Assembly: GCA_965645245.1 (NCBI GenBank)
Contig: OZ287076.1
Coordinates: 1,426,001 to 1,490,000 of the forward strand
DNA length: 64,000 bases
Direction: 5' to 3'
Source of the DNA: Massalongia carnosa
Lineage: Eukaryota
In this document: piece after piece, positions 1-58,520 of the stretch
Position numbering within the stretch: the stretch's first letter is position 1
Layout: each line of letters starts with the position of its first letter
Notes under the pieces: generated by a model
Told to the model about the DNA's origin: nothing
Databases searched by the model: none
The model's input: the letters and a program-made list of their open reading frames with translations, nothing else
Program-made: the position numbers and the translations under genes

Positions 1-2401
1 ACTGCTAAATGTAATGAAAAAGCTGAAATTATCTCGCATAATAATTCAATGGGTCAAGCATTTCATGACAAAACGATCGATCAATTTGATATTCGATGAA
101 AACAAAAGCAAAACATATTATGTCGAATCAGGAATTCCACAAGGTTCACCAATCTCGCCTATTCTATTTCTGATTTACATTCGTCACTTGTTTCCGAAAA
201 TACGAATGAAATTTATTGCACATTCTCCCAGTTTTATTGACGATGTTGCAATATATGTCGAAAATAAAACTGCAAAACAAAATTGCAAAGAAATCGAAAT
301 CATAGTCAAAACAGCTTTTGATTGGGCCGCATCGAATAATGTCAAATTTGATTACGATAAATCCGAGCTGATTCACTTCGAAAAGACAAGAAATGTATCG
401 AAAGACACATTGGAATTACCAAACGGGACAGTACTAGAACCGAAAAATATAGTCAAATGGTTGGGCGTCTGGTTAGACCGGAAACTGAATTTCAAAAAAC
501 ACGTCGAAACGCGAATCTCTTCTGCGAATCGATCGTTTTTTGCAATTCAGAATTTGATGAAATCCGAATGGGGTCTGAAACCGACCGCATGCAGACAGCT
601 CTATTTGTCATGCATTATTCCTATTTCGGACTATGGCTCAGAAATTTGGTATAATGGTCAAAAGAAATATGAAAAACTATTTCAGAACCTACAAAATCGA
701 ATGATTCGAAAGATTTTAGGAACTTTCAAAACCACACCTATTCAGGCGATGGAAATTGAATCACATGTTTTACCAGTTAAACTTCGATTATTAATGAAAA
801 ATCAAAAATACGCAATTCGATTATTGAAGATTGCCGAAAATAACCCTATTTGTCAAAGAATTCCAAATACATATTCGATAAAATTCGAAAACATCGGTTT
901 TGACACTAGTTTATGGAACAACAAATATGCCGAATGGAACGAAGACGAAAAACAAACAAATAAACGACATCCTAATCAGCTCATTCGCGTTCTTCATTCC
1001 GTTTCCGACATAGTTCACAAAACTGATGAGTTTGAACAATCAAATCATTTTATTAAACCTTGGAAATCGCCGTGCAAAATCGAATTTCAAATCGAAAATA
1101 CATAGGAATCTGCTAAATCAAGTTATTATTCGACCTTATCCAAAATTCAATCAATGAACTCCGATAAATCCCGAGTTTTACTTTATACGGATGGATCAAA
1201 AATCGAATTTGCAACGTCTGCAGTCACATTTGCGCCAATTATGAGGAATTGGAGTAGTATTATCAATAATTTTGATCGATTTATCGAAAAAGATTGACTG
1301 ATCAAGTATCATACGATTTCGAAAAGCTGGAAATTAAGCAAACAGTCAAGCATTAAAAATGCTGAACTGCATGCAATTTTACAAGCAATGAAATGGGTCT
1401 ATAAATTGTCTAATACTAATATTTTATCGAACTTGGAAAAAACGATTTGGATTTTTTCTGATAGTATAAACGCGATAAACGAAATTCAGAACTTGAAAAA
1501 TCATATTTTCGCAAGACAAATTCGAAAGCTCGCAAAACGCTTATTTGAAAGCAATTATCAGGTGATTTTGCAATGGGTTCCGAGTCATTCGAATATTACC
1601 GAAAACGAAATTGCAGACAAAATAGCAAAGACGGGCCATAATCAAATCCTAGTCGAGTCCTCGGCTATAACATTTGATTATGTAAAAGATCAAATAAATC
1701 AAAATATGCTAACCACATGGACGAATCAATGGCAAAAATGCAAATCAAAAGGCAAATACTACGAGAAATTCGAAATGAAACCTGGCATATCGAGATTTTA
1801 TTATTTATCAAACAACTGTTCCAAATTGATATTTGCTACTATTATGCAATTAAAATTCGGACACGGCTATTTTCGATCATATTTACATCGATTGAAAGAT
1901 TATAATTCGTCAAAATGCTCAAATCGATGCAATCAACGACAAACGCCAGAACACTTGTTATTGAATTGCATTCATTATTTCGATGAAATTCAAAACATGA
2001 AACAAACCATCGATACTACGATCAACTTGAATATGTTGTTTAATACAAAAATCGGAAATGACATTTTGATTAAATTCATTGTCAATAACAAAATCGCGAC
2101 TAGAAAATGGATACTAAGTCAGCTTGATATCGAAACTGGAGGTTGGGGAGAGATCGAACAGTAAAATCAGAAACGATTTATGCTTAAACAGTTACGAACT
2201 TACAAAGATAAATTGTAAAATCGATAATTTTCGATTACTATAGGTTGTTACTAACAAGGAGTAAAAATGGGGAAAAATTGACGATACATAGATGGGTTAT
2301 AAAGGGTTGATTTATTTGTAATATAGAAACATATCCTAAAATAGTTTAGTGTCATAACCTTAGGTTGAATACACTTAATGAATAAATAAAAAATAAAAAA
2401 A
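1..2401 (+). mobile_element. Tad1-like LINE, subfamily B, 3' part (RT C-terminus, RNase H, 3' UTR, poly-A); ORF2 interrupted by stops
   Basis: ORFs 14-1105 and 1388-2164 are nearly identical to ORF2 of the intact copy at 20703-24716 (GIPQGSPISPILF, FIDD, YTDGS). Premature TAG at 1103 and TGA near 1297. A-rich tail at ~2381-2401, followed by sequence matching the 5' UTR of subfamily A. Confidence 0.95.
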
Positions 2402-5400
2402 ACAAAACTTCTTGGTTTTCATTTGAAATTAAGGTTACCGGTACCGTATAAACTATTCCATTTTGGGTTTTTTCGATTTTCGTTGAACTGCCGACCAACA
2501 ATCTGCTGAAACGAAGGGGAAAAACGTCTGAAATAGGGTTAAACCAAAGGCCCTGTTTCGACTAACCTGAATAGGAAGTCTCCTACTCTCTCATTGTACT
2601 TGATGTTTATTTCTGGATCAAAAACATTTTTTAAAAAAAAAATTTTTTCTGTTCGATCGTAAAATTCTTATTATATTCCAAATATCGTAGTGTCAAGGTA
2701 AAAAGTTAAATAAGATATATTGCCTAAGCGAGGAACGGTCTATTTTAACTCGACTAGGATTTATGTGACTTGTTATTGTCAAATAAATAGGGTTTGGAAG
2801 GCAAGAGTCTTTAGACCAGTAAATCGGTGTAAAAACTCTCTATTCTGAATATTACGTCCGGGGAACGTCAGAATAAACTATTTGGTGGCGATAAAGGGGA
2901 TATAGCAAAGGCAAAATCGATTTATTTATAAAATCATGTTTAACGCGGTAATAAACCGCCGGAATATACCAAGGACACCACCCCCAGCCGGTCCCGCCCC
3001 CCTATCGACTCCTTACCCGGCCCCCCCCCGACACTCCCCCGGACCATCTCCGGTGGCGTTGATAGGGAGCTCTCCCCGTCTTGAACCTATGGATCAAACT
3101 CGCGAATATGCATCAGCCCCGTCAACACCGACACCAAAGGCAACGAAATTCCCATCGGGTCCATTTTCCACTATCTTGCCGATGCCTTCATTGAACTTAA
3201 ACATTGGATCAAGCCCACCAATCAAACGAAATAAAAGACGCACATTTGACGAACATTCGAGAGATAGCCAAGAAGCGATCAATCGGGCAAATTCAATTGA
3301 GCTTCTAAAGTCGGCCAAAAAAGCATTATTGCAATCATTTGTACTGGACAAAAATCCACAAACGGCTTTCGTAATTGACAACGTTAATTCGTTGATTTCG
3401 AAAAAATCAATCAATTTACAAACATCCTTAGATATGATTAACTATAAAATGGGCATAGTACTTGATCAAACTAGTCATCTTTCCTCAAAAACGTCACAAC
3501 AACAAACGACTCCACTACAGAATGGTCCAAAAATCCAAAAACCTGTTGTTAAATTGAATGAAAATTCAATTATCGAAAATCAGACCATTCGCAAAGGAGC
3601 CACCGGGGTCTCTGGTAACAATGTTAGCACAACCGGTACATGGAGTCAAATGCTTGGAAAAGCAACCGAAAACTCCGAAAATTGGACTACTATTCAAAGG
3701 AAAAGTTCGAATCATAATTCGAACAAAGTCGATCGATTTGATGCAATCAAGGCCAGAGGACTCGTGATTTCACCGAAAAATCCTGACGCTCAAATCGACT
3801 CTATGAAGTTGCGTGATCAAATTAACGCGCTATTAAAAAACGCAAATTTAAATATCATCGTCAATACTGTTGAAAAGTCCAAAATCGGTCAGAATATCGT
3901 TCTCATCACTAGCCCTGACAACAATGCCGAAGAATTGTTGAAAAATAAATCTTCATGGGAACACATTTTCGAATCACAAAGAATTCGAAAAGACGAATCC
4001 TGGTTTAAAGTCATAGCACACAGAGTAAATATCTCGTTATTCGATAATAACATGCAATATTTGCAAACCGAAATCGAAAAATACAATTCGAATATGCAAC
4101 TATGTGATTTACCAAGATGGCTTGCTCGGGATCGTCAAAACAAAGTCACGTCGTCGGTAGTTTTGACTTTCAATAATCAAAATCAAGCGTCAAACGCGTT
4201 AAGAGGCGTGAATATCGCGGGTAGACATTGTGACACGGAAATATTTGCTTCCGTTCGTCCAAACACGCAATGTATTAATTGTCAGAAATTTGGACATAAG
4301 CATTAGCAATGCAAAAGTCCGGCAAAATGCAATATATGCGCACAAATTCATGAAACGCATAATCATGAATGCACAACATGAAAGTCTTAAATTGCATGCG
4401 CACATTCAATTCTGAAATGCGTCAATTGCAACAAAAATCATCAATCGAACGATATAGGTTGCGAAATGTTTATCTCGCTAAATCCTAGAAAATCGAATGA
4501 TGAATTAATGCTTTGTTAATGGCGGGACAACATTCGTTGACAAATATCGAAAATACACAAAATGTCAAATTTATTCAACATAATTGTGCAAAGTCAACGA
4601 ATGCAATGATTTCGTGTCTGGAATATGCAGTATTAATCGTGTTGATATTGTGTTATTACAGGAACCATGGACGCGAGATCAAAAAACAATTTCCCATTCG
4701 TCATTCACATGTATTATGCCGAAAATAGCGACTTATCGGCCGAGAGTAGCTATATTCGTTACAAAATGCAATCCAAAATTACAATGCACGCCTAGAACGG
4801 ATCTTATAAACGATACTGATCTGCAAATTATCGAAATTACAATTGAGAAGTTCGAAAAGTGCAGATCTTTTACCTTTACAATGAAAATAGTCTAAACGAT
4901 CGAGAAACATATACAATCGATCGACTCTTAGATAAATATCAACCTATATCAACTGATCAATTTGTCATATGTGGAAATTTCAATGCACATCATAGCTGGT
5001 GGAATTCGAAGATTCAAAATGCAATTCAATCAGAAAATCTAGTCAAATGGTTAAAATTAAACAAATGTAGTTTAATAAATACGCCTAATCTATATACATT
5101 TTTTGCTCATTCAGGAAATTCTTCATCTACACCCGTTTGCAAAATGGTGTGCCGAACTTTGAACCCCGAAACTGTGCGGTAAAAAAAAATAATATGCGAC
5201 AGAATTGGACCACACATCAGAATTTGGTCCAGTAGCTAATGGCCCTCCTCCCTTTCACACCACCTTTTGCAGTCTGCAGGATAAATGATATGTAGTGTTC
5301 TCATGTAGATCTTTATTCTTGCTACCTCGTAGTTTCAAAGCCAAACATGGGACGATCATTCAGCATCATCAAATGCCAGGCTATAAAGTTCGGACTGGAA

Positions 5401-8400: not shown

Positions 8401-9781
8401 ATGAATTCGAATCAGTAAATAATTTCATCAAACCATGGAAGCCGTCTTGTAAAATCAAGTTCCAAATCGAAAGATCAAAAGAAACAGCAAAGTCAAGTTA
8501 TTATTCGACTTTATCAAAAATTCAATCAATAAACGCCGATAAATCTCGAATGTTACTCTATACCGATGGATCAAAAACCGAGTTTTCAACTTCCGCTGTC
8601 ACATTTGCACCAATTACGCGAAATTGGAACAATTTCACCGATAACTTCAATCGTTTTATCGAAAAAGATTTTCTCCTCAAACATCATACGATTTCGAAAA
8701 GCAGGAAATTAAACAAACAAGTCAAGCGTTATAAATGCTGAACTGTATGCGATACTACAAGCAATAAAATGGGTATACAAATTAGCAATTGCGAATATTC
8801 TCTCCAATTTGGAAAAAACGATTTGGATTTTCTCCGATAGCATAAACGCGATAAACGAAATTCAGAACTTGACAAATCATGCTTACGCAAAACAAATTCG
8901 AAAATTCTCGAAATGCTTATTCGGAAACAATTATCAGGTGGTTCTACAATGGATTCCTAGTCATTCGAAAATCGTCGAAAATGAAATTGCAGATAAAGCA
9001 GCAAAAGCGGGATGTAGTCGAATCCTAGTCGAGTCTTCGATAATAATATTTGATTATGTAAAGGGTCAAATATATCGGAATATGTTAGCCACATGGGCGA
9101 ATCAATGGCAACAATGCAAGTCAAAAGGCAAATACTATGAGAAATTCGAAATGCGGCCGGGCAAATCGAGTTTTTATTATCTGTCGAATAATTGTTCGAA
9201 ATTAATATTTGCGACTATTATGCAAATGAAATTCGGACACGGTTATTTTCGATCATATCTGCACCGATTGAAAGATTATAATTCGTCAAAATGCACAGGG
9301 CGCTGCAGCGAACGTCAAACGCCAGAATACTTATTGATGAATTGCATACATTATTCAAATGAAATCCTAAACATGAAACAAAATATCGATACCACAATTA
9401 CTTTTAAAATGTTGTTTAATACTAGGATCGGAATTAATTTTGATTAAATTTATTGTTGATAACAAAATCGCGACTAGAAAATGGATGCTAGGTCAGCTCG
9501 ATGACGAAAATATCGAAACGGGAGGTTAGGGAGAGATCGAACAGTAAAATTAGAAATGATTTATGCTGGAATATTTACGAGCTTTACAAAAACAAATTGT
9601 AAAATCGATATTTCGATTACTAAAGGTTGTTACTAACACGGAGTAAAAACGGGGCAATATTGACGATAGATAGTTGGGTTATAAAGGGTTGATTTATTTG
9701 TAAAATAAAACCATATCTTAAAATAGTTTAGCGTCATAACCTTAGATTGAATACACTTAATGAATAAATAAATAAAAAAAA
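2402..9781 (+). mobile_element. Tad1-like LINE, subfamily A, degenerate near-full-length copy (A1), interrupted by a Tc1-like element
   Basis: Colinear with the intact copy 10554-17306 from mid-5' UTR (ACAAAACTTCTTGG) to the poly-A at ~9762-9781. ORF1 2936-4306 has a premature stop; ORF2 is broken by frameshifts and stops. Confidence 0.95.
5130..6145 (+). mobile_element. Internally deleted Tc1/mariner (IS630-Tc1) DNA transposon with ~145-bp imperfect TIRs and TA TSD
   Basis: Termini CACCCGTTTGCAAAATGGTGTGCCGAAC... (5130) and ...GTTCGGCACACCATTTTGCAAACGGGTG (6145). TA at 5128-5129 and 6146-6147; removing the insert restores LINE CTTCATCTA|TTATTGATTT. ORF 5347-5997 has a Tc1-type HTH (RPTSYLDE...VSESTVSRTLKQMAW) but no DDE domain. 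Confidence 0.88.
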
Positions 9782-11463
9782 TCGAAATTCATTCGAATCG
9801 GTTATCACCCGTTATGCTGGCGGACAGGACTCGATGCAGTCCAGAAAAAACCTAATAAATCAGACTCTTCGTTTCCAAAATCATATTGAATTATCACATT
9901 ACTAAATTGTCTTGGTAAAATTGCTGAGAAAATCGTTGCAAATCGACTAGCCTATTTCGGTTAAAGTTCGAATTTACTCGATATCGAACAGATGGGCGGA
10001 CGCAAAAATCATTCTTCAATTGACGCAGTAATGAACGTTGTTCATGATATTGAAATTGCAAATAGAAATAAAAACGTCTTATCATGTTTATTACTCGATG
10101 TCAAAGGCGCATTTGACTTTGTCTCGATTATCAACTGCTAAATGTTATGAAAAAGCTGAAATTATCTCGCATGATAATTCAATGGGTCAAGCATTTCATG
10201 AAAAAACGATCGATCAATTTGATATTTGATGAAAACAAAAGCAAAACATATTATGTCGAATCTGGATTTCACAAGGCTCACCAATCTCGCCTATTCTATT
10301 TCTGATTTACATTCTTCACTTGTATCCGAAAATACAAATGAATTTCAATGCACATTCTCCCAGTTTTATTGACGATGTTGCAATATATTTCGAAAATAAA
10401 ACTGCAAAACAGAATTGGAAAGAAATCGAAATCATAGTCAAAACGGCCTTTGATTGGGCCGCATCGAATAATGTCAAATTTGATTACGATAAATCCGAGC
10501 TGATTCACTTCGAAAAGACAAGAAATGTATCGAAAGAGACATTGGAATTAATTGGAGATCAGTCATCAGCAAAAAGCCAACCCCCAAAACATCGGTACCC
10601 TATATTTTGATATACTGAAACTTTCCCAACTTATTCTCCTCATTCTTCTCATTCATTTGAGCCTACCAGAAGCTAAAACCCATCAGAATTGGGTACAGGA
10701 GAGCTCTTCCACTGCTCCTGCAGAGTTTTCCTCGCGGTCTATCCGCCCCTTCACCAAAAAGCGCGTCCAAAAAATCTACAAAACACAAAAACACCAACAA
10801 CAACGTCAAAAATCGCTCGATTTTCGATATTTCTTCGGTTTAATTGTCGCATAGATCTCATCTATTATCACAAAAATTATCTACAAAATATCATCACTGT
10901 CGCGTAACTGTACAACCTGTTCTCGAGACAACAAAACTTCTTGGTGTTCATTTGAAAATTAAGGTTACCGGTACCGTATACACTATTCCATTTTGGGTTT
11001 TTTCGATTTTCGTTGAACTGCCGACAAACAATCTGCTGAAACGAAGGGGAAAAACGTCTGAAATAGGGTTAAACCAAAGGCCCTGTTTCAGGCTAACCAG
11101 AATAGGAAGTCTCCTCTCTCTCATTGTACTTGATTTTTATTTCTGGATCAAAAACATTTTTTAAAAAAAAAATTTTCTGTTCGATCGTAAAATTCTTATT
11201 ATATTCCATATATCGTAGTGTCAAGGTAAAGAGTTAAATAAGATCTATTGCCTAAGCGAGGAACGGTCTATTTTAACTCGACTAGGATTTATTTGACTTG
11301 TTATTGTCAAATAAATAGGGTTTGGAAAGCAAGAGTCTTTAGACCAGTAAATCGGCGTAAAAACTCTCTATTCTGACTATTACGTCCGGGGAACGTCAGA
11401 ATAAATTATTTGGTGGCGATAAAGGGGATATAGCAAAGGCAACATCGATTTATTTATAAATCC

Positions 11464-13047
11464 ATGTTTAACGCGGTAATGAACCGCCGGAATATACCAA
11501 GGACACCACCCCCAGCCGGTCCCGCCCCCCTATCGACCCCTTACCCGGCCCCCCCCCGACACTCCCCCGGACCATCTCCGGTGGCGTTGATAGGGAGCTC
11601 TCCCCGTCTTGAACCTATGGATCAAACTCGCGAATATGCATCAGCCCCGTCCACACCGACACCAAAGGCAACGAAATTCCCATCGGGTCCATTTTCCACT
11701 ATCTTGCCGATGCCTTCATTGAACTTAAATATTGGATCAAGCCCACCAATCAAACGAAATAAAAGACGCACATTTGACGAACATTCGAGAGATAGCCAAG
11801 AAGCGATCAATCGGGCAAATTCAATTGAGCTTCTAAAGTCGGCCAAAAAAGCATTATTGCAATCATTTGTACTGGACCAAAATCCACAAACGGCTATCGT
11901 AATTGACAACGTTAATTCGTTGATTTCGAAAAAATCAATCAATTTACAAACATCCTTAGATATGATTAACTATAAAATGGGCATAGTACTTGATCAAACT
12001 AGTCATCTTTCCTCAAAAACGTCACAACAACAAACGACTCCACTACAGAATGGTCCAAAAATCCAAAAACCTGTTGTTAAATTGAACGAAAATTCAATTA
12101 TCGAAAATCAGACCATTCGCAAAGGAGCCACCGGGGTCTCTGGTAACAATGTTAGCACAACCGGTACATGGAGTCAAATGCTTGGAAAAGCAACCGAAAA
12201 CTCCGAAAATTGGACTACTATTCAAAGAAAAAGTTCGAATCATAATTCGAACAAAGTCGATCGATTTGATGCAATCAAGGCCAGACGACTCGTGATTTCA
12301 CCGAAAAATCCTGACGCTCAAATCGACTCTATGAAGTTGCGTGATCAAATTAACGCGCTATTAAAAAACGCAAATTTAAACATCATCGTCAATACTGTTG
12401 AAAAGTCCAAAACCGGTCAGAATATCGTTCTCACCACTAGCCCTGACAACAATGCCGAAGAATTGTTGAAAAATAAATCTTCATGGGAACATATTTTCGA
12501 ATCACAAAGAATTCGAAAAGACGAATCCTGGTTTAAAGTCATAGCACACGGAGTAAATATCTCGTTATTCGATAATAACATGCAATATTTGCAAACCGAA
12601 ATCGAAAAATACAATTCAAATATGCAACTATGCGATTTACCAAGATGGCTTGCTCGGGATCGTCAAAACAAAGTCACCTCGTCGGTAGTTTTGACTTTCA
12701 ATAATCAAAATCAAGCGTCAAACGCGTTAAGAGGCGTGAATATCGCGGGTAGACATTGTGACACGGAAATATTTGCTTCCGTTCGTCCAAACACGCAATG
12801 TATTAATTGTCAGAAATTTGGACATAAGCATTATCAATGCAAAAGTCCGGCAAAATGCAATATATGCGCACAAAGTCATGAAACGCATAATCATGAATGC
12901 ACAACATGCAAGTCTAAAATCGCATGCGCACATGCAATTCTGAAATGCGTCAATTGCAACAAAAATCATCAATCGAACGATATAGGTTGCGAAATGTTTA
13001 TCTCGCTAAATCCTAGAAAATCGAATGATGAATTAATGCTTGGTTAA
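11464..13047 (+). CDS. LINE ORF1 gag-like nucleic-acid-binding protein (527 aa)
   Basis: Pro-rich N-terminus; C-terminal CCHC knuckles CINCQKFGHKHYQC, CNICAQSHETHNHEC, CVNCNKNHQSNDIGC typical of Tad1/Jockey ORF1. Confidence 0.93.
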   Translation: MFNAVMNRRNIPRTPPPAGPAPLSTPYPAPPRHSPGPSPVALIGSSPRLEPMDQTREYASAPSTPTPKATKFPSGPFSTILPMPSLNLNIGSSPPIKRNKRRTFDEHSRDSQEAINRANSIELLKSAKKALLQSFVLDQNPQTAIVIDNVNSLISKKSINLQTSLDMINYKMGIVLDQTSHLSSKTSQQQTTPLQNGPKIQKPVVKLNENSIIENQTIRKGATGVSGNNVSTTGTWSQMLGKATENSENWTTIQRKSSNHNSNKVDRFDAIKARRLVISPKNPDAQIDSMKLRDQINALLKNANLNIIVNTVEKSKTGQNIVLTTSPDNNAEELLKNKSSWEHIFESQRIRKDESWFKVIAHGVNISLFDNNMQYLQTEIEKYNSNMQLCDLPRWLARDRQNKVTSSVVLTFNNQNQASNALRGVNIAGRHCDTEIFASVRPNTQCINCQKFGHKHYQCKSPAKCNICAQSHETHNHECTTCKSKIACAHAILKCVNCNKNHQSNDIGCEMFISLNPRKSNDELMLG

Positions 13048-16000
13048 TGGCGGGACAACATTCGTTGACAAATATCGAAAATACACAAAATGTCAAATTT
13101 ATTCAACATAATTGTGCAAAGTCAACGAATGCAATGATTTCGTGTCTGGAATTTGCAGTATTAAATCGTGTTGATATTGTTTTATTTCAGGAACCATGGA
13201 CGCGAGATCAAAAAACAATTTCCCATCCGTCATTCACATGTATTATGCCGAAAATAGCGACTTATCGGCCGAGAGTAGCTATATTCGTTACAAAATGCAA
13301 TCCAAAATTACAATGCACGCCTAGAACCGATCTTATAAACGATACTGATCTGCAAATTATCGAAATTACAATTGATGAAGTTCGAAAGGTGCAGATCTTT
13401 AACCTTTACAATGAAAAAAGTCTAAACGATCGAGAAACATATACAATCGATCGACTTTTAGTTAAATATCAACCTATATCAACTGATCAATTTGTCATAT
13501 GTGGAGATTTCAATGCACATCATAGCTGGTGGAATTCGAAGATTCAAAATGCAATTCGATCAGAAAATCTAGTCAAATGGTTAAAATTAAACAAATGTAG
13601 TTTGATAAATACGCCTGATCTATATACATTTTTTGCTCATTCAGGAAACTCTTCATCTATTATTGATTTAACATTTGCAAATTCTAAAATCGAAAACGCA
13701 ATTACAAATTGGTCAATCGATGAAAACGCAGTCACGGGTTCAGATCATGAAGTTATTCGATTTGAATTTATCGCGTCTTTCAAGAACTTGACGACACACG
13801 CAACCGCATTATCGAATAAATACAACTGCAATAAAGCCGATTGGGATAAATTCGCGAAGTTTCTAGACGAAAATGCAGTAAACTACGAGTCCCAAATACA
13901 AAGTCTATTGAACAATTATCAATTTGATGAATCAGCGTTATATTTGCAAAACGTTATCAAAAACGCGGCTGAAATGTTTATTCCGAAGACAAAAATATGC
14001 GCAAAATCGAAAAATTGGTGGTCGCAAGATTTATCCGGACTCCGAAAAATCATGTGTAGACATCGTCGAGAATGGAAGAATAATCCGTCCTATTTTAGTC
14101 ATCAAACATTTAGACATAGTCGAATCGAGTACTTTCATGCAATTCGAAAAGCGAAACAGCAAACTTGGTTGGCTTTCCTCGAAAACGCAGCGAATAAAGA
14201 CGTATTTACAGCTTATAAATACACTAAACCGCGCATGTTCGAAAAAATACCCCCTATTCAATATGAAAATAAGTTAAATGTTCAATTCGATCACAAATGC
14301 GATGCGTTTGTTTCAGCAATGTACACAAAAAACCCGTTCACTGATGATAATATTGAAGATTTAACGAATCAAGACAGCGAAAATGACAACAATTGGCCGA
14401 ATTTAACCGAAAATGAATTGCAAAATGCGATTAGTTTGTTTAATCCAAAGAAATCATGTGGGCCTGATACAATCAATTTCACAATAATTCAAAAATCGTT
14501 TCAACCATTGAAAAACGTGTTTTTTACTATTTATTCTAAATTTATACAAATCGGTTATCACCCGTTATGTTGGCGAACAGGACTCGGTGCTGTTTTAAAA
14601 AAACCTAATAAACCAGACTACTCGCTGCCAAAATCATATCGAATTATTACCTTACTGAATTGTCTTGGTAAAATTGCGGAGAAAATAGTTGCTAATCGAC
14701 TAGCCTACCTCGGCGAAAATTCGAGCTTGTTAGATACCGAACAAATGGGCGGACGGAAGAATCATTCTGCAATCGATGCGGTAATAAACGTCGTTCATGA
14801 TATCGAAATCGCAAACCGAAACAAAAACGTTTTATCATGTCTATTACTCGATGTCAAAGGAGCATTTGACTTTGTTTCGATTAATCAATTGCTAAATGTC
14901 ATGAAAAAGCTGCATTTATCTCGCATAGTTATTCAATGGGTCAAGCATTTTATGACAAAACGATCGATCAATTTGATATTCGATGAACAGAAAAGCAAAA
15001 CGTACTATATCGAATCTGGAATTCCACAAGGTTCACCAATTTCGCCAATTCTATTTCTGATTTATATTCGTTACTTATTTCCGAAAATACGAATGAAATT
15101 CAATGCTCATTCACCTAGCTTTATAGACGATGTTGCAATATATGTCGAAAATAAAACTGCCACACAGAATTGCAAAGAAATCGAAAGTATCGTCAAAACA
15201 GCTTTTGATTGGGCCGCAACGAATAATGTCAAATTTGATGACGACAAATCTGAGTTGATTCACTTCGAAAAGTCAAGAAATGCATCAAAAGACAAAGTGC
15301 AATTACCAAACGGGACAATACTAGAACCGAAAAATTCTGTCAAATGGTTAGGAGTCTGGTTAGACCGAAAACTAAATTACAAAAAACACGTCGAAACGCG
15401 AATTGCTTCTGCAAATCGATCGTTTTTCGCAATTCAAAATTTGATGAAGTCTGAATGGGGACTAAAGCCAACTGCATGCAGACAGCTCTATTTGTCATGC
15501 ATTATTCCTATTTCGGACTATGGCTCAGAAATCTGGTATAACGGTCAAAAGAAATATGAAAAGCTATTTCAGAATCTGCAAAATCGAATGATTCGAAAGA
15601 TTTTAGGCACATTCAAAACCACGCCTGTTCAGGCGATGGAAATTGAATCGCATATTTTACCAGCCAAGCTACGATTGTTGATGAAAAATCAAAAATACGC
15701 AATACGATTATTGAAGATTGCCGAAAATAATCCTATTTGTCAAAGAATTCCCAGTACCTATACGGTGAAATTTGAAAACATCGGTTTTGACACTAGTTTA
15801 TGGAACAACAGATATGCTGAATGGAACGAAGACGAGAAAAAATCGAGTAAACCTCATCCTAGTCAGCTTATCCGTATTCTTCATTCCGTTTCGGATATAG
15901 TTCACAAAACTGATGAATTCGAATCAGTAAATAATTTCATCAAACCATGGAAGCCGTCTTGTAAAATCAAGTTCCAAATCGAAAGATCAAAAGAAACAGC

Positions 16001-17060
16001 AAAGTCAAGTTATTATTCGACTTTATCAAAAATTCAATCAATAAACGCCGATAAATCGCAAATTTTACTCTATACCGATGGATCAAAAACCGAGTTTTCA
16101 ACTTCCGCTGTCACATTTGCACCAATTACGCGAAATTGGAACAATTTCACCGATAACTTCAATCGTTTTATCGAAAAAGATTGTCTCCTCAAACATCATA
16201 CGATTTCGAAAAGCTGGAAATTAAACAAACAGTCAAGCGTTAAAAACGCTGAACTCTATGCGATACTACAAGCAATAAAATGGGCATACAAATTGACAAT
16301 TGCGAATATTCTCTTCAATTTGGAAAAAACGATTTGGATTTTTTCCGATAGCATAAACGCGATAAACGAAATTCAGAACTTGACAAATCATACTTACGCA
16401 AAACAAATTCGAAAATTCTCGAAATACTTATTCGGAAACAATTATCAGGTGGTTCTACAATGGATTCCTGGTCATTCGAAAATCGTCGAAAATGAAATTG
16501 CAGATAAAGCAGCAAAAGCGGGACATAGTCGAATCCTAGTCGAGTCTTCGATAATAACATTTGATTATGTGAAGGGTCAAATAAATCGAAATATGTTAGC
16601 CGCATGGGCGAATCAATGGCAACAATGCAAGTCAAAAGGCAAATACTATGAGAAATTCGAAATGCAGCCGGGCAAATCGAGTTTTTATTATCTGTCGAAT
16701 AATTGTTCTAAATTAATATTTGCAACTATTATGCAAATGAAATTCGGACACGGTTATTTTCGATCATATCTGCACCGATTGAAAGATTATAATTCGTCAA
16801 AATGCACAGGGCGCTGCATCGAACGTCAAACGCCAGAACACTTATTGATGAATTGCATACATTATTCAAATGAAATCCTAAACATGAAACAAAATATCGA
16901 TACCACAATTACTTTAAAAATGTTGTTTAATACTAGGATCGGAAATAATATTTTGATTAAATTTATTGTTGATAACAAAATCGCGACTAGAAAATGGATG
17001 CTAGGTCAGCTCGATGACGAAAATATCGAAACGGGAGGTTGGGGAGAGATCGAACAGTAA
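13047..17060 (+). CDS. LINE ORF2 polyprotein: APE endonuclease, reverse transcriptase, RNase H, C-terminal CCHC (1337 aa)
   Basis: QEP, GDFNAHH, IDLTF, SDH (endonuclease); YRIITLLNCLGK, LLDVKGAFD, GIPQGSPISP, FIDD, WLGV (RT); YTDGS, AEL, SDS, WIPGH, NEIAD (RNase H); C..C..QTPEHLLMNC. Confidence 0.97.
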   Translation: MAGQHSLTNIENTQNVKFIQHNCAKSTNAMISCLEFAVLNRVDIVLFQEPWTRDQKTISHPSFTCIMPKIATYRPRVAIFVTKCNPKLQCTPRTDLINDTDLQIIEITIDEVRKVQIFNLYNEKSLNDRETYTIDRLLVKYQPISTDQFVICGDFNAHHSWWNSKIQNAIRSENLVKWLKLNKCSLINTPDLYTFFAHSGNSSSIIDLTFANSKIENAITNWSIDENAVTGSDHEVIRFEFIASFKNLTTHATALSNKYNCNKADWDKFAKFLDENAVNYESQIQSLLNNYQFDESALYLQNVIKNAAEMFIPKTKICAKSKNWWSQDLSGLRKIMCRHRREWKNNPSYFSHQTFRHSRIEYFHAIRKAKQQTWLAFLENAANKDVFTAYKYTKPRMFEKIPPIQYENKLNVQFDHKCDAFVSAMYTKNPFTDDNIEDLTNQDSENDNNWPNLTENELQNAISLFNPKKSCGPDTINFTIIQKSFQPLKNVFFTIYSKFIQIGYHPLCWRTGLGAVLKKPNKPDYSLPKSYRIITLLNCLGKIAEKIVANRLAYLGENSSLLDTEQMGGRKNHSAIDAVINVVHDIEIANRNKNVLSCLLLDVKGAFDFVSINQLLNVMKKLHLSRIVIQWVKHFMTKRSINLIFDEQKSKTYYIESGIPQGSPISPILFLIYIRYLFPKIRMKFNAHSPSFIDDVAIYVENKTATQNCKEIESIVKTAFDWAATNNVKFDDDKSELIHFEKSRNASKDKVQLPNGTILEPKNSVKWLGVWLDRKLNYKKHVETRIASANRSFFAIQNLMKSEWGLKPTACRQLYLSCIIPISDYGSEIWYNGQKKYEKLFQNLQNRMIRKILGTFKTTPVQAMEIESHILPAKLRLLMKNQKYAIRLLKIAENNPICQRIPSTYTVKFENIGFDTSLWNNRYAEWNEDEKKSSKPHPSQLIRILHSVSDIVHKTDEFESVNNFIKPWKPSCKIKFQIERSKETAKSSYYSTLSKIQSINADKSQILLYTDGSKTEFSTSAVTFAPITRNWNNFTDNFNRFIEKDCLLKHHTISKSWKLNKQSSVKNAELYAILQAIKWAYKLTIANILFNLEKTIWIFSDSINAINEIQNLTNHTYAKQIRKFSKYLFGNNYQVVLQWIPGHSKIVENEIADKAAKAGHSRILVESSIITFDYVKGQINRNMLAAWANQWQQCKSKGKYYEKFEMQPGKSSFYYLSNNCSKLIFATIMQMKFGHGYFRSYLHRLKDYNSSKCTGRCIERQTPEHLLMNCIHYSNEILNMKQNIDTTITLKMLFNTRIGNNILIKFIVDNKIATRKWMLGQLDDENIETGGWGEIEQ

Positions 17061-19044
17061 AATTAGAAATGATTTATGCTGGAATATTTACGAGCTTTAC
17101 AAAAACAAATTGTAAAATCGATATTTCGATTACTAAAGGTTGTTACTAACACGGAGTAAAAACGGGGCAATATTGACGATAGATAGTTGGGTTATAAAGG
17201 GTTGATTTATTTGTAAAATAAAACCATATCTTAAAATAGTTTAGTGTCATAACCTTAGGTTGAATACACTTAATGAATAAATAAAAAAAAAAAAAAAAAA
17301 AAAAAACATTGGAATTAATTACCAAACGGGACAGTAATAGAACCGAAAAAAGTAGTCATATGGTTGGGCGTCTGGTTAGACCAAAAACTAAATTTCAAAA
17401 AAGACGTCGAAACGCGGATCTCTTCTGCGAATCGATCATATTTTGCAATTCAGAATTTGATGAAATCCGAATGGAGTCTGAAACCGACCGCATGCAGACA
17501 GCTCTATTTGTCATGCATTGTTCCTATTTCGGACTACGGCTCAGAAATTTGGTATAATGGTCAAAAGAAATATGAAAAACTATTTCAGAACCTACAAAAT
17601 CGAATGATTCGAAAGATTTTAGGAACTTTCAAAACCACACTTATTCAGGCGATTGAAATTGAATCGCATGTTTTACCAGTTAAACTTCGATTATTAATGA
17701 AAAATCAAAAATACGCAATTCGATTATTGAAGATTGCCGAAAATAACCCTATTTGTCAAAGAATTCCAAACACATATTCGATAAAATTCGAAAACATCGG
17801 TTTTGACACTAATCTATGGAACAACAAATATTCTGAATGGAACGAAGACGAAAAACAAACAAATAAACGACATCCTAGTCAGCTTATTCGCGTTCTTCAT
17901 TCCGTTTCCGACATAGTTCACAAAACTGATGAATTTGAAAAATCAAATCATTTTATTAAACATTGGAAAACGCCGTTCAAAATCGAATTTCAGATCGAAA
18001 ATACAAATGAATCTGCTAAATCAAGTTATTATTCGACCATATCCAAAATCTAATCAATGAACTCTGATAAATCCCGAGTTTTACTTTATACAGATGGATC
18101 GAAAATCGAATTTGCAACGTCTGCAGTCATATTTGCGCCAATTATGAGGAATTGGAACTGAACAACAAGAAACACAAGTACCGCAACTTTTGATACACTA
18201 TAACTTTAACAGTCAATTGAGCCTCTATTTCTCAGTCATTTGCGCTCCTCCAGAGTTAAAACGCTCACAGATTGAGTGTAGGAGAGCTCTAGCAAAGCTC
18301 CAGCAGAGTTTTTCTGCTGGTCGCACGCGACCGACGTGATAAAGCGCGCTCTAGAAGTTGGAAAAAACAACAAATACCAACAACCTCACCAAAAATCGCT
18401 CTTTTTTCTTGTTTTCTTCTGTTCTGTTGTCGCATGACCTTCAATTATTACTATAAAAATTATCTACAAAAATTATCTACTCTCGCGGGACTGTACAACA
18501 ACTGTCGCGACGTCAGAGTCTTCTAAAGTTCATTCCTCATTTAAGGTTACGGGAACTTCCGCAAGCACAAATTTTCATAGCATATTTCACGTATAATTTT
18601 TGCACATTCCATTTTCGGCTTTATAGATCTTCGTTGAACGGCCGGTCAACAGATCACTGAAAAGAAGGGGAAAAACGTCTGGAATAGGATTATACCAAAG
18701 GTCCTGTTTCAGATTAATCAGAATAGGAAGTCTCCTATTGTCTTACATTGCATTAAAATTTATCTTTATTGAAAAAAGCAAAAAAAAAACTTTCATTATT
18801 TTCACCTATTGTAGTGTCTGGTAAAGGGTTAAATAAGACTTACTGCCTTAGCGAGGAACGGTCTATTTTAACCCGATTAGGATTTATTTGACGCGTTATA
18901 GTCAAATAAATAGGGATAGGAAAGAAAGAGTCATTTGACCAGTAAACAAACAGGTGTAAATTCTATTCTGACTAGTACGTCCGGGGAAAGTCAGAATAAA
19001 TTATTTGGTGGCGATAAAAGGGATATTGCAAAGGCAAAAACACT

Positions 19045-55895: not shown

Positions 55896-58520
55896 TTCTT
55901 CTTTCTTTCTTGGGGGTATTCTTATCTTGTGATCTTCTATTCGATGGCCGAGAAATCCTGGTTTCTACGATCCTGGGTTCTGGTTCTTCTGGGTCTGAGT
56001 TCTTCTTTTGATTCTGGTAATTCTGGTGGCCTAGAAATCCTTGCTTCTAAGGTCCTATGATCTGGTTCTAGTCTAAGTTCCGGGTTCTTCTTCTAATTTT
56101 CCTGGTTGAACGGTTTAATATCGTGTTCAGGATAGCAAGGGTTAAAGAAGATGCTTAGTCTAATATAAGAACCACTATCCAGGGAAGACGAATAGTAGTC
56201 AGCTACCTAAGAGACTAAGCATGAAGAAGAGAAATCTATCTACAAAGAAGAATGTGAAATCTATATGCCCGTTTGCCCTTCTTCTCGAAGTTTCCATCCG
56301 GCTCTAGAAGCTTATCTCCGAAGCTTCGTTCGGAAAGAGCCGTTGGATTTAGCGCTCCCACACCCGAGTCCTGACATAACAAACTGGTAAGGCTGATTGC
56401 TGATGGCTTAGTATTGCTATCCGCCTTATCATGACTAAGCATCCGGATTATCAGTCACCCTGTCTTCTTGGGTGAGTCATCCCAGGAGCTAGCGCAGTCC
56501 TGTATTGCCGCGCTGTTACAATTTACTCCATGTGCGATCAATTTAAACCAGGATTCGTCTTTTCGAATTCTTTGTGTATCGAACATATGTTCCCATATAG
56601 ATTTGTTTTCCAACAATTCTGCAGCAGTGTTTTTCGAACTAGTAATGAGAACGATATTCTGACCGGTTTTCGATTTTTCGACCGTGTTGATTACGATATC
56701 TAACTTCGCGTTGCTGAATTGCGCGTTAATTTGATCTCGAAGTTTCAATGAGTCGATATCGCCGATTTGAATTTTTGGTGTAATTATCAGTCGTCTGAGT
56801 TTGATTGCATTTAATTCGTCGGTTTTGTCGAATTTGTTCGAGGTTTAACTCGAATTTTTCGATCTGGAAACAGTGGTCCAATTTTCGGAATTCACAGTTG
56901 CTTTTCCAAGCATTTGACTCCAGGATGGAGGCGTGTTATTGACCTTTGTACTCGTAACCCCGGCGGTTTCCTTTCGTGCGTTCGTGTTGACGACTTTATT
57001 TGGATTTTCAGTCGTATTGACTTATTGAACCCGAGTCGATTTTCGCGTTGTTTCTGAGGTTCGATTACTAGTCTGATCAATTACCTTGTCCAATTTCCAA
57101 TTCATCATGTCTAGTGTTGTTTTTATATTAATTGATTTTTTTGTCAATAAGGAATTGACATTATCAATGACTATTGCTGTTTCTGGATTTTGATCTAAGA
57201 TAAATGACTTCAATAACGCGGTTTTAGCCGTTTTGAGTAATCCAATCGATTGTGCTCGATTGATTGCTTCTTGGCTTTCCTCTACTCGTTCGTCGAATGT
57301 TTTTCGTTTGTTACGTTTGATAGGCGGGCTTAATTAAATCTATATTAGAATTTAACGATGACATGGGTAGATTGGTAGTAAATTGTCCAGATGGGAATTT
57401 GGTTACTTTTGGGGTCGGCGTAGTCGGGGCGGACGAATAATTTATGTGATTGATCCATAGGCTCGTCAAGTACAGGCGATTTTTCTATAAGTCCTACTGA
57501 CGAGAGCCCCGGAGATTCCATTTGGAGAGGGTTTTGAGGAGTACTCAGGGTTGTTCCCGGGGAGGCTCTCAATATAATTCGTCGAGTCCTAGGGAGTACC
57601 GGATTGAACATGATTTAATAAATAAATCGATATGCCTTTTCAATATCCCTTTTATCACCACCAAATAATTTATGCTGATGTTCCCCGGACGTACTAATCA
57701 GAATAGAAATTTACACCAATTTACAGGTCTAACGACTCTTGCTTTCCTATCCCTATTTATATGACAATAACTCGTCAAATAAATCCTAATCGGGTTAAAA
57801 TAGACCGTTCTTCGCTTAGGCAGTAAATCTTATTTAACCCTTTACCAGACACTACAATAGTTGAAAATAATGAAAGTTTTTGTTTTGCTTCTTTGCGATA
57901 AAAATAGATCTAAGGCAAGGTAAGATAATAAGAGACTTCCTATTCTGATTAATCTGAAATAGGATCTTTGGTATAATCCTATTCCAGACGTTTTTCCCCT
58001 TCTTTTCAGTGATCTGTTGACCGGCCGTTCAATGGAGATCGATAAACCCTAAAATGGTATATGCAGAAATTATACGTGAAATATACTGTGAAAATTTGTG
58101 CTTGCGGAAGTTCCCGTAACCTTAAATGAGAAATGAACTTCAAAAAAGTTGGTCGTCGCGTCAGTTGTTGTACAGTACCGCGACAGTAGATATTTTTTGT
58201 AGATAATTCTTGTAGTAATAATTGAGGGTAATGCGACAACAGAACAGAAGAAAGTGAGAAAAAAGAGCGATTTTTGGTGATATTGTTGGTATTTGTTGTT
58301 TTTTATAACTTCTTGAGCGCGCTTTATCACGTCTGTCGCGTGCGACCAGCAGAAAATCTCTGCTGGAGCTTTGCTAGAGCTCTCCTACACTCAATCTGAG
58401 TCCGTTTTTGCTCTGGAGGAGCTCAAATGACTGAGAAAGAGATTTTCAATTGACTTTGAAAGTTATAGAGTATCAAAAGTTGCGGTACTTGTGTTTCGAT
58501 AGGTGGTCTTTGGTGTCTAT

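What the first reader, a model, noticed from the sequence alone, without database searches (positions are those of the whole stretch)
10890..11463. Large covarying RNA structure in the LINE 5' UTR (candidate IRES, ribozyme or other cis-RNA)
Seen: the ~550 nt before the ORF1 ATG keeps conserved blocks in subfamilies A (here and 2402-2935), B (18480-19044) and D (57612-58190, minus), although the ORF1 N-termini diverge. The blocks form helices with compensatory changes. CTGAAATAGGG/CCCTGTTTCAG (11058-68/11081-91) becomes CTGGAATAGGA/TCCTGTTTCAG in B and .../TCCTATTTCAG in D. GAGTTAAA/TTTAACTC (11231-38/11272-79) becomes GGGTTAAA/TTTAACCC. ATTTATTTGAC/GTCAAATAAAT (11287-97/11306-16) has a variable loop. 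GTC-N4-GAC has three different loops. TATTCTGAC/GTCAGAATA (11369-77/11395-403) becomes TATTCTGAT/ATCAGCATA in D, around an invariant TACGTCCGGGGAA. A GTCGCG-type hairpin encloses ACTGTACAAC near 10900. Known: some non-LTR elements (R2, L1Tc, RTE) carry 5' HDV-like ribozymes or IRES-like structures; I do not recognise an HDV or hammerhead core here. Inference: an unclassified structured RNA governing translation or 5'-end processing, useful for elements that are co-transcribed from inside other LINEs.
Basis: partly seen in the sequence, partly recalled or inferred. Interest (0 to 1): 0.82.

Follow-up and report, generated by a model that had tools for sequence, protein, structure and literature searches.

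The report
Conserved hairpin modules in LINE leader
The long untranslated leader of a fungal-type jumping gene (a LINE) carries a row of small RNA hairpins that distant relatives also carry, and they most likely bind a protein that controls the element's own translation or packaging.

Summary
The interpretation needs changing. The region is the 3' half of an ~880-nt 5' leader (10585-11463) of an APE-RT-RNaseH LINE. Its ORF1 protein has three CCHC-like zinc knuckles.

- **Scanned leader.** It has 0, 0 and 1 ATG in copies A1, D and B, against ~9 expected and 12-14 CAT. This argues for 5'-end scanning and against an IRES.
- **No single large fold.** There are three conserved blocks (89-94% identity, against 45-67% at four-fold sites). 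They hold separate hairpins: H1 11056-11093, H2 11226-11284, H3 11287-11316 and H5 11369-11403.
- **Weak covariation inside the window.** Only 3 of 64 pairs changed on both sides, which 163 of 500 shuffles also reach.
- **Strong covariation with relatives.** The H2 module recurs in distant LINEs from metagenomes (ORF1 23-36% identical). The loop is kept and the stems are changed but still pair: 12 of 16 pairs changed on both sides, and no shuffle in 500 reaches the covariation score.
- **Position.** In six leaders from four lineages, a loop-motif hairpin ends 46-81 nt before the ORF1 ATG.
- **No known family.** Rfam gave no credible match, ribozymes included.

The binding partner is inferred, not shown. 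My best guess is ORF1p, acting as a packaging or translation operator.

The parts
10585..11463 (+). 5' leader of intact LINE copy A1 (~879 nt), free of ATG
   Evidence: Homology with B and D starts at about 10585. 0 ATG against 9.0 expected, with 14 CAT. The nearest upstream ATG is at 10525.
11056..11093 (+). H1: 15-bp hairpin with an 8-nt loop, -21.5 kcal/mol
   Evidence: All cells pair, with 5 one-sided wobble changes and 1 compensatory pair. Sense z is -7.2 against antisense -0.4. Model R3 recognises it as module-like (E 0.00017).
11226..11284 (+). H2 module: outer stem, 2x2 internal loop, 5-bp inner stem and a conserved 18-19-nt apical loop ending GGAAC
   Evidence: Distant LINEs keep the loop and change the stems in a compensating way.
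11287..11316 (+). H3: 11-bp A/U-rich hairpin with a variable loop, directly after H2
   Evidence: The stem never varies between the intact copies and is broken in the decayed copies A2 and D.
11369..11403 (+). H5: 9-bp hairpin whose 17-nt loop ends GGGGAAC; it ends 60 nt before the ORF1 ATG
   Evidence: The models did not detect it. Its module status rests on the loop-end motif and on its position.
11464..13047 (+). ORF1 (527 aa) with three CCHC-like zinc knuckles near the C-terminus
   Evidence: Pfam reported nothing at E<=0.001.
13047..17060 (+). ORF2 (1337 aa): APE endonuclease, reverse transcriptase and RNase H
18168..19044 (+). Leader of intact copy B, with H1 18677-18714, H2 18821-18879, H3 18882-18911 and H5 18964-18998
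57612..58490 (-). Leader of decayed copy D, with H1 57952-57989, H2 57787-57845, H3 57755-57784 and H5 57671-57705
   Evidence: H5 is lost in the fold of the full leader.
2401..2935 (+). Copy A2, truncated at its 5' end and decayed, with H1 2526-2562, H2 2698-2756, H3 2759-2788 and H5 2841-2875
   Evidence: None of its private changes in stems keeps a pair (0 preserving; 3 classed as disrupting plus 2 in complex columns). It has gained 2 ATG.

Best explanation
The finding lies in the ORF1-proximal half of a ~880-nt, ATG-free 5' leader of a Tad1/I-like LINE. The mRNA is read by ribosomes that scan from the 5' end.

The leader contains a tandem row of related sense-strand RNA hairpin modules: H1, H2, H5 and the adjacent H3. 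The best-defined one, H2, has a conserved apical loop that ends in a G-rich ...GGAAC motif next to the 3' arm. Its stems are free to change as long as they still pair. The module is old. It occurs in three groups of LINEs whose ORF1 proteins are only 23-36% identical. In six leaders from four lineages, a hairpin whose loop ends in the motif ends 46-81 nt before the ORF1 start codon.

Inferred mechanism: the loops are sequence-specific protein-binding sites. The most likely partner is the element's own ORF1 protein, which has three CCHC-like zinc knuckles. Binding would nucleate RNP assembly on the element's own RNA (packaging, cis-preference) and/or damp ORF1 translation, in the manner of a retroviral Psi leader or a coat-protein operator.

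Shown here: the ATG depletion, the conservation, the hairpins and the covariation. Inferred: the binding partner and the effect.
For: - **Scanned leader.** ATG counts are 0 of 879 nt (A1), 0 (D) and 1 (B). Dinucleotide shuffles expect 9.0, 9.7 and 8.5 (P<=0.001), and CAT occurs 12-14 times. In A1 and D the ATG-free run is 936-937 nt and begins 25-60 nt outside the element's 5' end. All 10 relatives with intact ORFs have ATG-free runs of 189-1117 nt before ORF1 (median 336). The median CAT-free run is 52 nt.
- **Selection on the blocks.** Blocks 11040-11115, 11215-11320 and 11369-11440 are 89%, 89% and 94% identical between A1 and B. Four-fold sites are 45% (ORF1) and 67% (ORF2) identical, and the spacers 40-53%.
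- **Hairpins form.** Pair probabilities are 0.97-0.99 for H1, the H2 core, H3 and H5 in the full leaders of both intact copies. H1 is the most extreme of 165 windows (z -7.3, next -4.7) and is strand-specific.
- **Substitution pattern.** Between the A and B/D lineages, 7 substituted stem columns keep pairing and 2 break it. In the dead copy A2, none keeps it and 3-5 break it.
- **Deep covariation.** A model built from the window copies alone finds L072 988-1044 (E 0.0038) and L079 (E 0.023 and 0.2).
  - On a MAFFT alignment of 5 sequences, 8 of 17 pairs changed on both sides (1 of 500 shuffles). The covariation score is 0.488 against 0.251 (0 of 500).
  - On 23 model-aligned rows, 86.7% of cells pair against 65.7% in shuffles. 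12 of 16 pairs changed on both sides (27 of 500). The score is 0.445 against 0.158 (0 of 500), and slid controls reach at most 0.138.
- **Distribution.** 37 hits have E<=0.003. All lie in leaders of the window family (8), L072 (2), L079 (2) and one metagenome family (25).
- **Sense strand.** U-G closes the inner stem in 18 of 23 rows. The antisense strand scores 11.5 bits against 91.
- **Specificity control.** None of 81 prokaryotic or viral loci that carry the exact 16-nt loop word by chance has the module. The best score is 13.6 bits, for the loop alone.
- **Position.** The hairpin nearest the ATG ends 60, 46, 80, 81, 60 and 67 nt before it in A1, B, L001, L006, L072 and L079.
- **Candidate partner.** All 12 ORF1 proteins examined have CCHC-like knuckles (three in 9, two in 2, one in 1). 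Retroviral NC knuckles bind exposed guanosines in leader hairpin loops (PMC7599994, passages read).
Against: - No binding, expression or structure-probing data exist. No RNA run was available.
- Only 3 of the 10 relatives with intact ORFs carry a detectable module (L001, L072, L079). L008, L012, L014, L021, L023, L031 and L077 do not. Yet all 9 of these 10 whose ORF1 was examined have CCHC knuckles (L077 was not examined). The module is therefore not a general requirement for such proteins.
- Inside the conserved blocks, unpaired positions are about as conserved as paired ones (17 of 131 against 12 of 127 differ). A sequence-level reading, including DNA-level sites, therefore explains part of the conservation.
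- The models do not detect H5. Its kinship to H2 rests on the loop-end motif and on position.
- The alignments were fitted to the model's structure. The 25 rows from one metagenome family are close relatives, many of them decayed.
- Hairpins of -9 to -21 kcal/mol in a scanned leader could simply tune scanning without any specific protein.
Confidence: 0.45

Rival explanations
1. The hairpins are a translation enhancer for a host factor or the ribosome. They would recruit initiation factors or the 40S subunit close to the ORF1 start codon, as an IRES-like or cap-independent enhancer, or they would tune scanning speed.
For: The hairpin nearest the ATG sits at a constant 46-81 nt before it in six leaders from four lineages. 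The loops are conserved in sequence. Abstracts report IRES activity upstream of both ORFs of mouse L1 (PMC3592465, abstract in the listing).
Against: ATG depletion covers the whole 879 nt, not only the last 60. A true internal entry site would not need that. The title of Dmitriev et al. 2007, seen only in a reference list, says the 900-nt human L1 leader is strictly cap dependent. No Rfam IRES family matched.
Confidence: 0.2
2. The conserved blocks are DNA-level elements of the internal promoter or enhancer, that is, transcription-factor sites downstream of the start site as in the human L1 5' UTR. The hairpins would then be incidental.
For: Unpaired positions in the blocks are as conserved as paired ones. 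H3 and H5 are near-perfect inverted repeats that fold equally well on both strands. By recall only, some invariant G-rich boxes resemble fungal zinc-finger factor sites.
Against: Across lineages the stems change sequence but keep pairing. A DNA site does not predict that. H1 and H2 rely on G-U pairs and score far worse on the antisense strand. The blocks lie 450-860 nt from the 5' end, and the first 300 nt are less conserved (61-71%).
Confidence: 0.12
3. The modules bind the ORF2 protein and coordinate late integration steps, as the structured 5' RNA of R2 does for its protein.
For: There is a precedent for a structured RNA near the start of the ORF that directs the protein's function in R2 (PMC2346776, title and abstract in the listing). 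Model R3 finds modules only in leaders, never in 3' UTRs of the window.
Against: R2 is a single-ORF element with a restriction-like endonuclease. No such role is known for APE-type two-ORF LINEs (recalled).
Confidence: 0.08
4. The region is a self-cleaving ribozyme that frees the element's RNA from read-through transcripts.
For: R2 elements carry HDV-like ribozymes at their 5' ends (PMC3774820, abstract in the listing). The copies here are nested in other LINEs.
Against: No ribozyme family matched at E<=10 over 10500-11600, which includes the 5' end, and none matched in L072 or L079. The hairpins lie 470-820 nt inside the element. ATG depletion upstream of them implies that the upstream part stays on the translated RNA. 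Simple hairpins lack the pseudoknots or junctions of known ribozymes (inference).
Confidence: 0.03

Closest known systems
Retroviral and LTR-retrotransposon Psi leader hairpins bound by nucleocapsid CCHC zinc knuckles (PMC7599994, passages read)
   Same: Several stem-loops sit in the 5' leader just before the first ORF. They show exposed G-rich loop residues, and the element's first protein carries CCHC-type knuckles.
   Different: This is a non-LTR element with no capsid. Binding is untested, the loop motif differs, and no dimerisation element was identified.
R2 5' RNA element that directs R2 protein function (PMC2346776, listing)
   Same: It is a structured RNA near the start of the ORF of a non-LTR retrotransposon, conserved in structure more than in sequence.
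   Different: R2 is a single-ORF, site-specific element whose element is a pseudoknot bound by the RT protein. Here simple hairpins sit in a two-ORF APE-type LINE.
Human L1 5' UTR, a ~900-nt leader translated cap-dependently (Dmitriev et al. 2007; only the title was seen, in the reference list of PMC4782638)
   Same: It is a very long leader that appears to be scanned from the 5' end. Here the evidence is ATG depletion.
   Different: By its title the L1 leader is GC-rich. This one is 37% GC and carries discrete modules shared across deep lineages.
HDV-like ribozymes at the 5' ends of R2 and other LINEs (PMC3774820, abstract in the listing)
   Same: They are structured RNAs in the 5' part of a LINE.
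   Different: They sit at the exact 5' junction and have a double pseudoknot. Here nothing matched, and the hairpins lie far from the 5' end.

Membership tests
Any Rfam 15 family (4227 models, including IRES, HDV-like, hammerhead, twister, pistol, hatchet and VS) | Covariance-model match at the gathering score, or at least a credible E-value | tested here: not met
   There were 0 matches at the gathering score in the whole window. Over 10500-11600 there were only two matches with E<=10, a miRNA at E 3.2 and a lncRNA at E 9.4. L072 and L079 gave 0 matches at E<=1.
HDV-like 5' ribozyme of LINEs | Located at the exact 5' end of the element so that cleavage defines the 5' terminus | tested here: not met
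   The conserved hairpins start 472-785 nt into the leader. The 5' end is at about 10585.
HDV-like 5' ribozyme of LINEs | Nested double-pseudoknot fold with a catalytic cytosine | tested here: inconclusive
   Rfam's HDV-type models gave no match. Such models are known to be insensitive (recalled), and no descriptor search was run.
IRES | Internal, 5'-end-independent ribosome entry shown in a bicistronic assay with controls | not testable with these tools
   Indirect evidence against it: ATG depletion over the whole leader.
Tad1/I-like LINE (APE-type, two ORFs) | ORF2 with APE endonuclease, reverse transcriptase and RNase H | tested here: met
   Pfam hits to Exo_endo_phos_2 (1.6e-19), RVT_1 (1.1e-35) and RNase_H (2e-10). 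The clade name is recalled; no tree was built.
Tad1/I-like LINE (APE-type, two ORFs) | ORF1 protein with CCHC zinc knuckles | tested here: met
   Three CCHC-like motifs lie at residues 446-509 of ORF1. Pfam zf-CCHC did not reach E<=0.001.
Psi-like packaging signal | Leader hairpins with exposed guanosines close to the first ORF | tested here: met
   The loops end in G-rich ...GGAAC. The hairpin nearest the ATG ends 46-81 nt before it.
Psi-like packaging signal | Specific binding by the element's knuckle protein, and a requirement for packaging | not testable with these tools
   No RNA-protein tool was available. This needs binding assays and mutant retrotransposition assays.

The most novel reading that the evidence does not exclude
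The GGAAC-loop hairpins are a Psi-like recognition signal. The LINE's own CCHC-knuckle ORF1 protein would use it to pick out and coat its own mRNA and to switch it from translation to RNP assembly. That would be a sequence-specific basis for cis-preference in an APE-type LINE clade, and it would be older than the split of lineages whose ORF1 proteins now share only about a quarter of their residues.
Probability: 0.3. Interest if true: 0.8.

Novelty: new variant of a known kind. Interest (0 to 1): 0.6.

Why it matters
5' UTRs of APE-type LINEs are usually treated as fast-evolving promoter regions (recalled). Sequence-specific RNA recognition in LINEs is known mainly for 3' ends and for R2.

Here a small RNA module in the leader outlasts near-saturation of the surrounding sequence. 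Lineages whose ORF1 proteins are only 23-36% identical share it.

It gives a defined, mutable target for an old question: how a LINE protein finds its own RNA. It is also a candidate new cis-regulatory RNA family for Rfam. The ATG-depletion test is a cheap computational way to separate scanned leaders from IRES candidates in other elements.

Tried and rejected
**Sources that gave nothing**
- No whole genome is held for this window, so genomic copies could not be collected.
- Earlier findings returned nothing by place or by sequence.
- Sequencing runs: no RNA holder is listed.
- Laying four Logan contig sets showed only the A, B and D states already in the window. Contigs were short and gave no phased new lineages.

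**Searches that missed or found only chance matches**
- A 24-nt pattern from H5 found 0 matches in metagenome contigs.
- blastn (E<=0.01) and nhmmer (E<=1) of the whole leader against the 80 related loci found nothing. Exact invariant motifs were absent. These searches missed the 19-nt shared loop, which surfaced only in a hairpin-pattern search.
- The 16-nt loop word found 1 viral and 83 prokaryotic contigs. All are chance matches without the stems.

**Structural ideas that did not hold**
- Long-range pairs in the global RNAalifold fold have broken cells and were not pursued.
- No conserved open frame lies in the blocks. Stop-to-stop frames there are at most 46 aa and do not line up between A1 and B.
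- Strong local hairpins in relatives' leaders gave a modest result. 6 of 10 have at most 5 of 60 shuffles as good, and 4 of 10 are unremarkable.
- A loose descriptor (a stem plus a loop ending in the motif) was not specific. Antisense controls also hit.

**Considered by eye and rejected**
- H2 as a short intron, judged from recalled splice signals. I rejected this because its interior is conserved and an intron would be lost on retrotransposition. It cannot be tested without RNA data.

**Technical**
- timed out and was rerun in a smaller form.
Full report
**What the locus is.** The window is a repeat-rich eukaryotic stretch of nested LINEs plus a Ty3/chromovirus-type LTR element.
- The LINE has a 527-552-aa ORF1. 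Its 1337-aa ORF2 carries APE endonuclease, reverse transcriptase and RNase H domains.
- The nearest named ORF2 relatives are ascomycete proteins, for example one from a lichen fungus at 43% identity. I therefore call it a fungal-type Tad1/I-like LINE. That clade name is recalled, not tested by a tree.
- No whole genome is held for the window.

**Checking the observation.** Four copies of the leader are in the window:

| Copy | Coordinates | State |
|---|---|---|
| A1 | up to 11463 | intact ORFs |
| A2 | 2401-2935 | truncated at the 5' end, 96% identical to A1, decayed |
| B | up to 19044 | intact ORFs |
| D | 57612 upward, minus strand | ORF1 decayed |

- Homology among A1, B and D begins at about 10585 in A1. 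B and D share an identical 5' start, and the sequences upstream of it are unrelated. The leader is therefore ~880 nt, not ~550.
The three compensatory changes are real.
- Over the whole leader, A1 and B are only 65-72% identical, less than the whole element at 81%. The conservation sits in three blocks, compared here with neutral benchmarks:

| Region | A1-B identity |
|---|---|
| Block 11040-11115 | 89% |
| Block 11215-11320 | 89% |
| Block 11369-11440 | 94% |
| Four-fold degenerate sites, ORF1 | 45% |
| Four-fold degenerate sites, ORF2 | 67% |
| Spacers between blocks | 40-53% |

**Is the structure more than chance, using the window alone?** Partly.
- On the four copies, the five local hairpins comprise 64 pairs, and 95.7% of cells pair. 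But 46 pairs never vary and only 3 changed on both sides. That count is reached by 163 of 500 shuffles, and the covariation score by 17 of 500.
- Column-shuffle tests on alignment folds (A1, B, D) gave these z-scores:

| Hairpin | Sense z | Antisense z |
|---|---|---|
| H1 | -7.2 | -0.4 |
| H2 | -2.3 | -2.1 |
| H3 | -5.2 | -11.6 |
| H5 | -3.0 | -3.8 |

- In a scan of 165 windows of 80 nt across the whole A1/B element, the H1 window is the most extreme (z -7.3, next -4.7). The leader overall is not clearly more structured than the rest: mean z is -0.91 against -0.49, and windows below -3 number 1 of 19 against 5 of 146. There is no evidence for one large fold.
- In the full leaders of the two intact copies, H1, the H2 core, H3 and H5 each have mean pair probabilities of 0.97-0.99. 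In the decayed copy D, H5 is lost.
- Between the A and B/D lineages, 7 substituted stem columns keep pairing and 2 break it. In the dead copy A2, none keeps pairing and 3 break it, plus 2 more in columns classed as complex.
- Against a purely structural reading, unpaired positions inside the blocks are about as conserved as paired ones (17 of 131 against 12 of 127 differ between A1 and B). Outside the blocks, 45 of 117 differ.

**The leader is scanned.**
- ATG counts in the leader, against dinucleotide-preserving shuffles (1000 each) and against CAT, the same word on the other strand:

| Copy | ATG observed | ATG expected | P | CAT observed |
|---|---|---|---|---|
| A1 (879 nt) | 0 | 9.0 | <0.001 | 14 |
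| D | 0 | 9.7 | <0.001 | 12 |
| B | 1 | 8.5 | 0.001 | 12 |

- The decayed A2 has gained 2 ATG.
- In A1 and D the ATG-free run is 936-937 nt and begins 25-60 nt outside the element's 5' boundary. In B, the next ATG upstream of its single internal one also lies just outside the boundary.
- Among the 80 related loci, 10 have intact ORF1 and ORF2. All 10 have ATG-free runs of 189-1117 nt before ORF1 (median 336), against a median CAT-free run of 52 nt.
- Selection against upstream start codons along the entire leader is what 5'-end-dependent scanning predicts. An IRES does not need it. It also implies that the 5' part stays on the translated RNA, which speaks against cleavage inside the region.

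**The decisive evidence came from distant relatives.**
- A DNA pattern scan of metagenome contigs found nothing.
- A protein-based scan with an ORF2 alignment fetched 80 loci at 27-50% identity.
- Whole-leader blastn and nhmmer found nothing in them.
- A hairpin-pattern search then showed that L072 carries, 166 nt before its ORF1 ATG, the same 18-19-nt apical loop as H2, between different stems. L079 carries a three-mismatch version.
- MAFFT aligns A1, B, D, L072 and L079 over 59 columns almost without gaps. On that alignment, 8 of 17 pairs changed on both sides (1 of 500 shuffles). The covariation score is 0.488 against 0.251 (0 of 500). This holds even though the outer stem of the window copies is one column out of register there.

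**Covariance models.**
- A model built from the four window copies alone (R1) found L072 (E 0.0038) and two sites in L079 (E 0.023 and 0.2) among 892 kb.
- Covariation counts on the model-fitted alignments:

| Alignment | Cells paired (shuffled) | Pairs changed on both sides | Covariation score (shuffled) |
|---|---|---|---|
| 7 rows | 94.2% (77.5%) | 9 of 16 (2 of 500 shuffles) | 0.446 (0.178; 0 of 500) |
| 23 rows | 86.7% (65.7%) | 12 of 16 (27 of 500 shuffles) | 0.445 (0.158; 0 of 500) |

- In the 23-row alignment, slid controls reach at most 0.138.
- A second model (R2) added a whole family from related metagenome assemblies, the L001 type. It also matched the window's H1 (E 0.0078).
- The third model (R3) gave 39 matches at E<=5, of which 37 have E<=0.003. 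These are 8 in the window (H2 four times, H1 four times), 2 in L072, 2 in L079 and 25 in the L001-type family.
- Caveats: these alignments are fitted to the model, E-values are rough, and the L001-type rows are close relatives, many with transition-rich decay.
- Control: 81 prokaryotic or viral loci carry the exact 16-nt loop word by chance. None has the module, and the best score is 13.6 bits for the loop alone.
- Strand: U-G closes the inner stem in 18 of 23 rows. The antisense of B's H2 scores 11.5 bits against 91.

**Anatomy of the module.**
- It starts with a purine-rich single-stranded flank.
- An outer stem of 4-8 bp follows, then a 2x2 internal loop.
- The inner stem has 5-7 bp, and its first two pairs are invariant.
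- The apical loop of 17-19 nt contains a 3-bp mini-hairpin (one compensatory U-A to C-G change in L079) and ends in ...GGAAC directly before the 3' arm.
- A conserved 3' flank closes the module.

H5 of the window has a different stem, but its loop again ends in GGGGAAC. The models do not detect it. L072 and L079 each have two or three modules.

A hairpin whose loop ends in the motif ends 60 (A1), 46 (B), 80 (L001), 81 (L006), 60 (L072) and 67 nt (L079) before the ORF1 ATG.

**Limits of the distribution.** Only 3 of the 10 relatives with intact ORFs carry a detectable module (L001, L072, L079). ORF1 of A1 is 36% identical to L001, 23% to L079 and 27% to L072. Lineages of intermediate similarity (L008, L012, L023, L031) lack a hit. 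The module is therefore either ancestral and repeatedly lost or diverged beyond detection, or it has moved between lineages.

**Mechanism.**
- Shown: a scanned, ATG-free leader; conserved blocks; sense-strand hairpins whose stems covary around conserved loops; and a fixed position before the start codon.
- Inferred: the loops are sequence-specific protein-binding sites.
- My leading candidate is the element's own ORF1 protein. It has three CCHC-like knuckles in A1 and B, and all 12 ORF1 proteins examined have at least one. Retroviral NC knuckles bind exposed guanosines in leader hairpin loops next to gag (PMC7599994, passages).
- Binding could nucleate RNP assembly in cis and/or repress ORF1 translation.
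- I put about 0.8 on 'real sense-strand RNA hairpin modules under selection' and about 0.35 on ORF1p as the partner.
- Rivals are a host-factor translation enhancer, DNA-level promoter sites, an R2-like role for ORF2p, and a ribozyme. Each is listed with its evidence.

**Comparison with what is known.**
- No Rfam family matches.
- In function the closest are Psi leader hairpins and the R2 5' RNA element (PMC2346776, listing only).
- In leader length and scanning it resembles the human L1 5' UTR. For that I saw only the title of Dmitriev et al. 2007, in a reference list, because the paper itself is not held.
- Mouse L1 IRES activity is stated in the abstract of PMC3592465. R2 ribozymes are stated in the abstract of PMC3774820.
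- Two full-text searches turned up no paper describing a conserved 5'-leader hairpin in APE-type LINEs. One combined non-LTR retrotransposon, UTR, RNA secondary structure and upstream AUG. The other combined non-LTR retrotransposon, ORF1, zinc knuckle, stem-loop and packaging signal. The library lacks most subscription journals, so this is weak evidence of novelty.

**Verdict.** It is a set of small modules in a scanned leader, not a large fold, and neither an IRES nor a ribozyme is supported. I class it as a new variant of a known kind, of moderate to good interest.

Noticed in passing
window 13047-13140: ORF1 ends and ORF2 starts on the same base (13047). The 80-nt window from 13059 is 97% identical between A1 and B. 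It has the second-strongest fold signal of the element (z -4.7 sense, -5.2 antisense). It may be a structure that serves ORF2 reinitiation.
   Followed up: no
window 50917-55895 (-): A Ty3/chromovirus-type LTR retrotransposon lies here. It has a gag ORF with a zinc knuckle and a pol ORF with protease, RT, RNase H, integrase and chromodomain.
   Followed up: no
window 18434: Copy B has a single upstream ATG in its leader, absent from A1 and D. It lies in an otherwise conserved stretch. By eye it opens a short upstream ORF of roughly 30 codons.
   Followed up: partly
window 11464-17060 vs 19045-24716: Four-fold-site identity between A1 and B is 45% in ORF1 and 67% in ORF2. The two halves may have different histories, through recombination between subfamilies, or ORF1 may evolve unusually fast.
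   Followed up: no
window 2401-9781: Copy A2 matches A1 in two pieces, 2401-5129 and 6146-9781. About 1 kb of other sequence lies between them and holds a 216-aa ORF at 5347-5997.
   Followed up: no
L001-type loci, e.g. L042 7906-7960, L063 1425-1479, L001 3761-3815 (-): Many module copies in this metagenome family differ by G-to-A and C-to-T transitions. This would be expected from repeat-induced point mutation or simple decay.
   Followed up: no
L104-L106, L114, L119, L121, L123, L126-L128, L130, L131, L144, L151, L152, L154, L157, L158: The 16-nt loop word occurs many times in a few Levilactobacillus genomes, so it is part of some bacterial repeat there. It is unrelated to the LINE module, and R3 gave no match.
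   Followed up: partly
run X2, laid on window 10585-11700: One public run laid 2092 contigs on the leader, with summed word depths in the hundreds of thousands. The family is extremely abundant in that sample.
   Followed up: no
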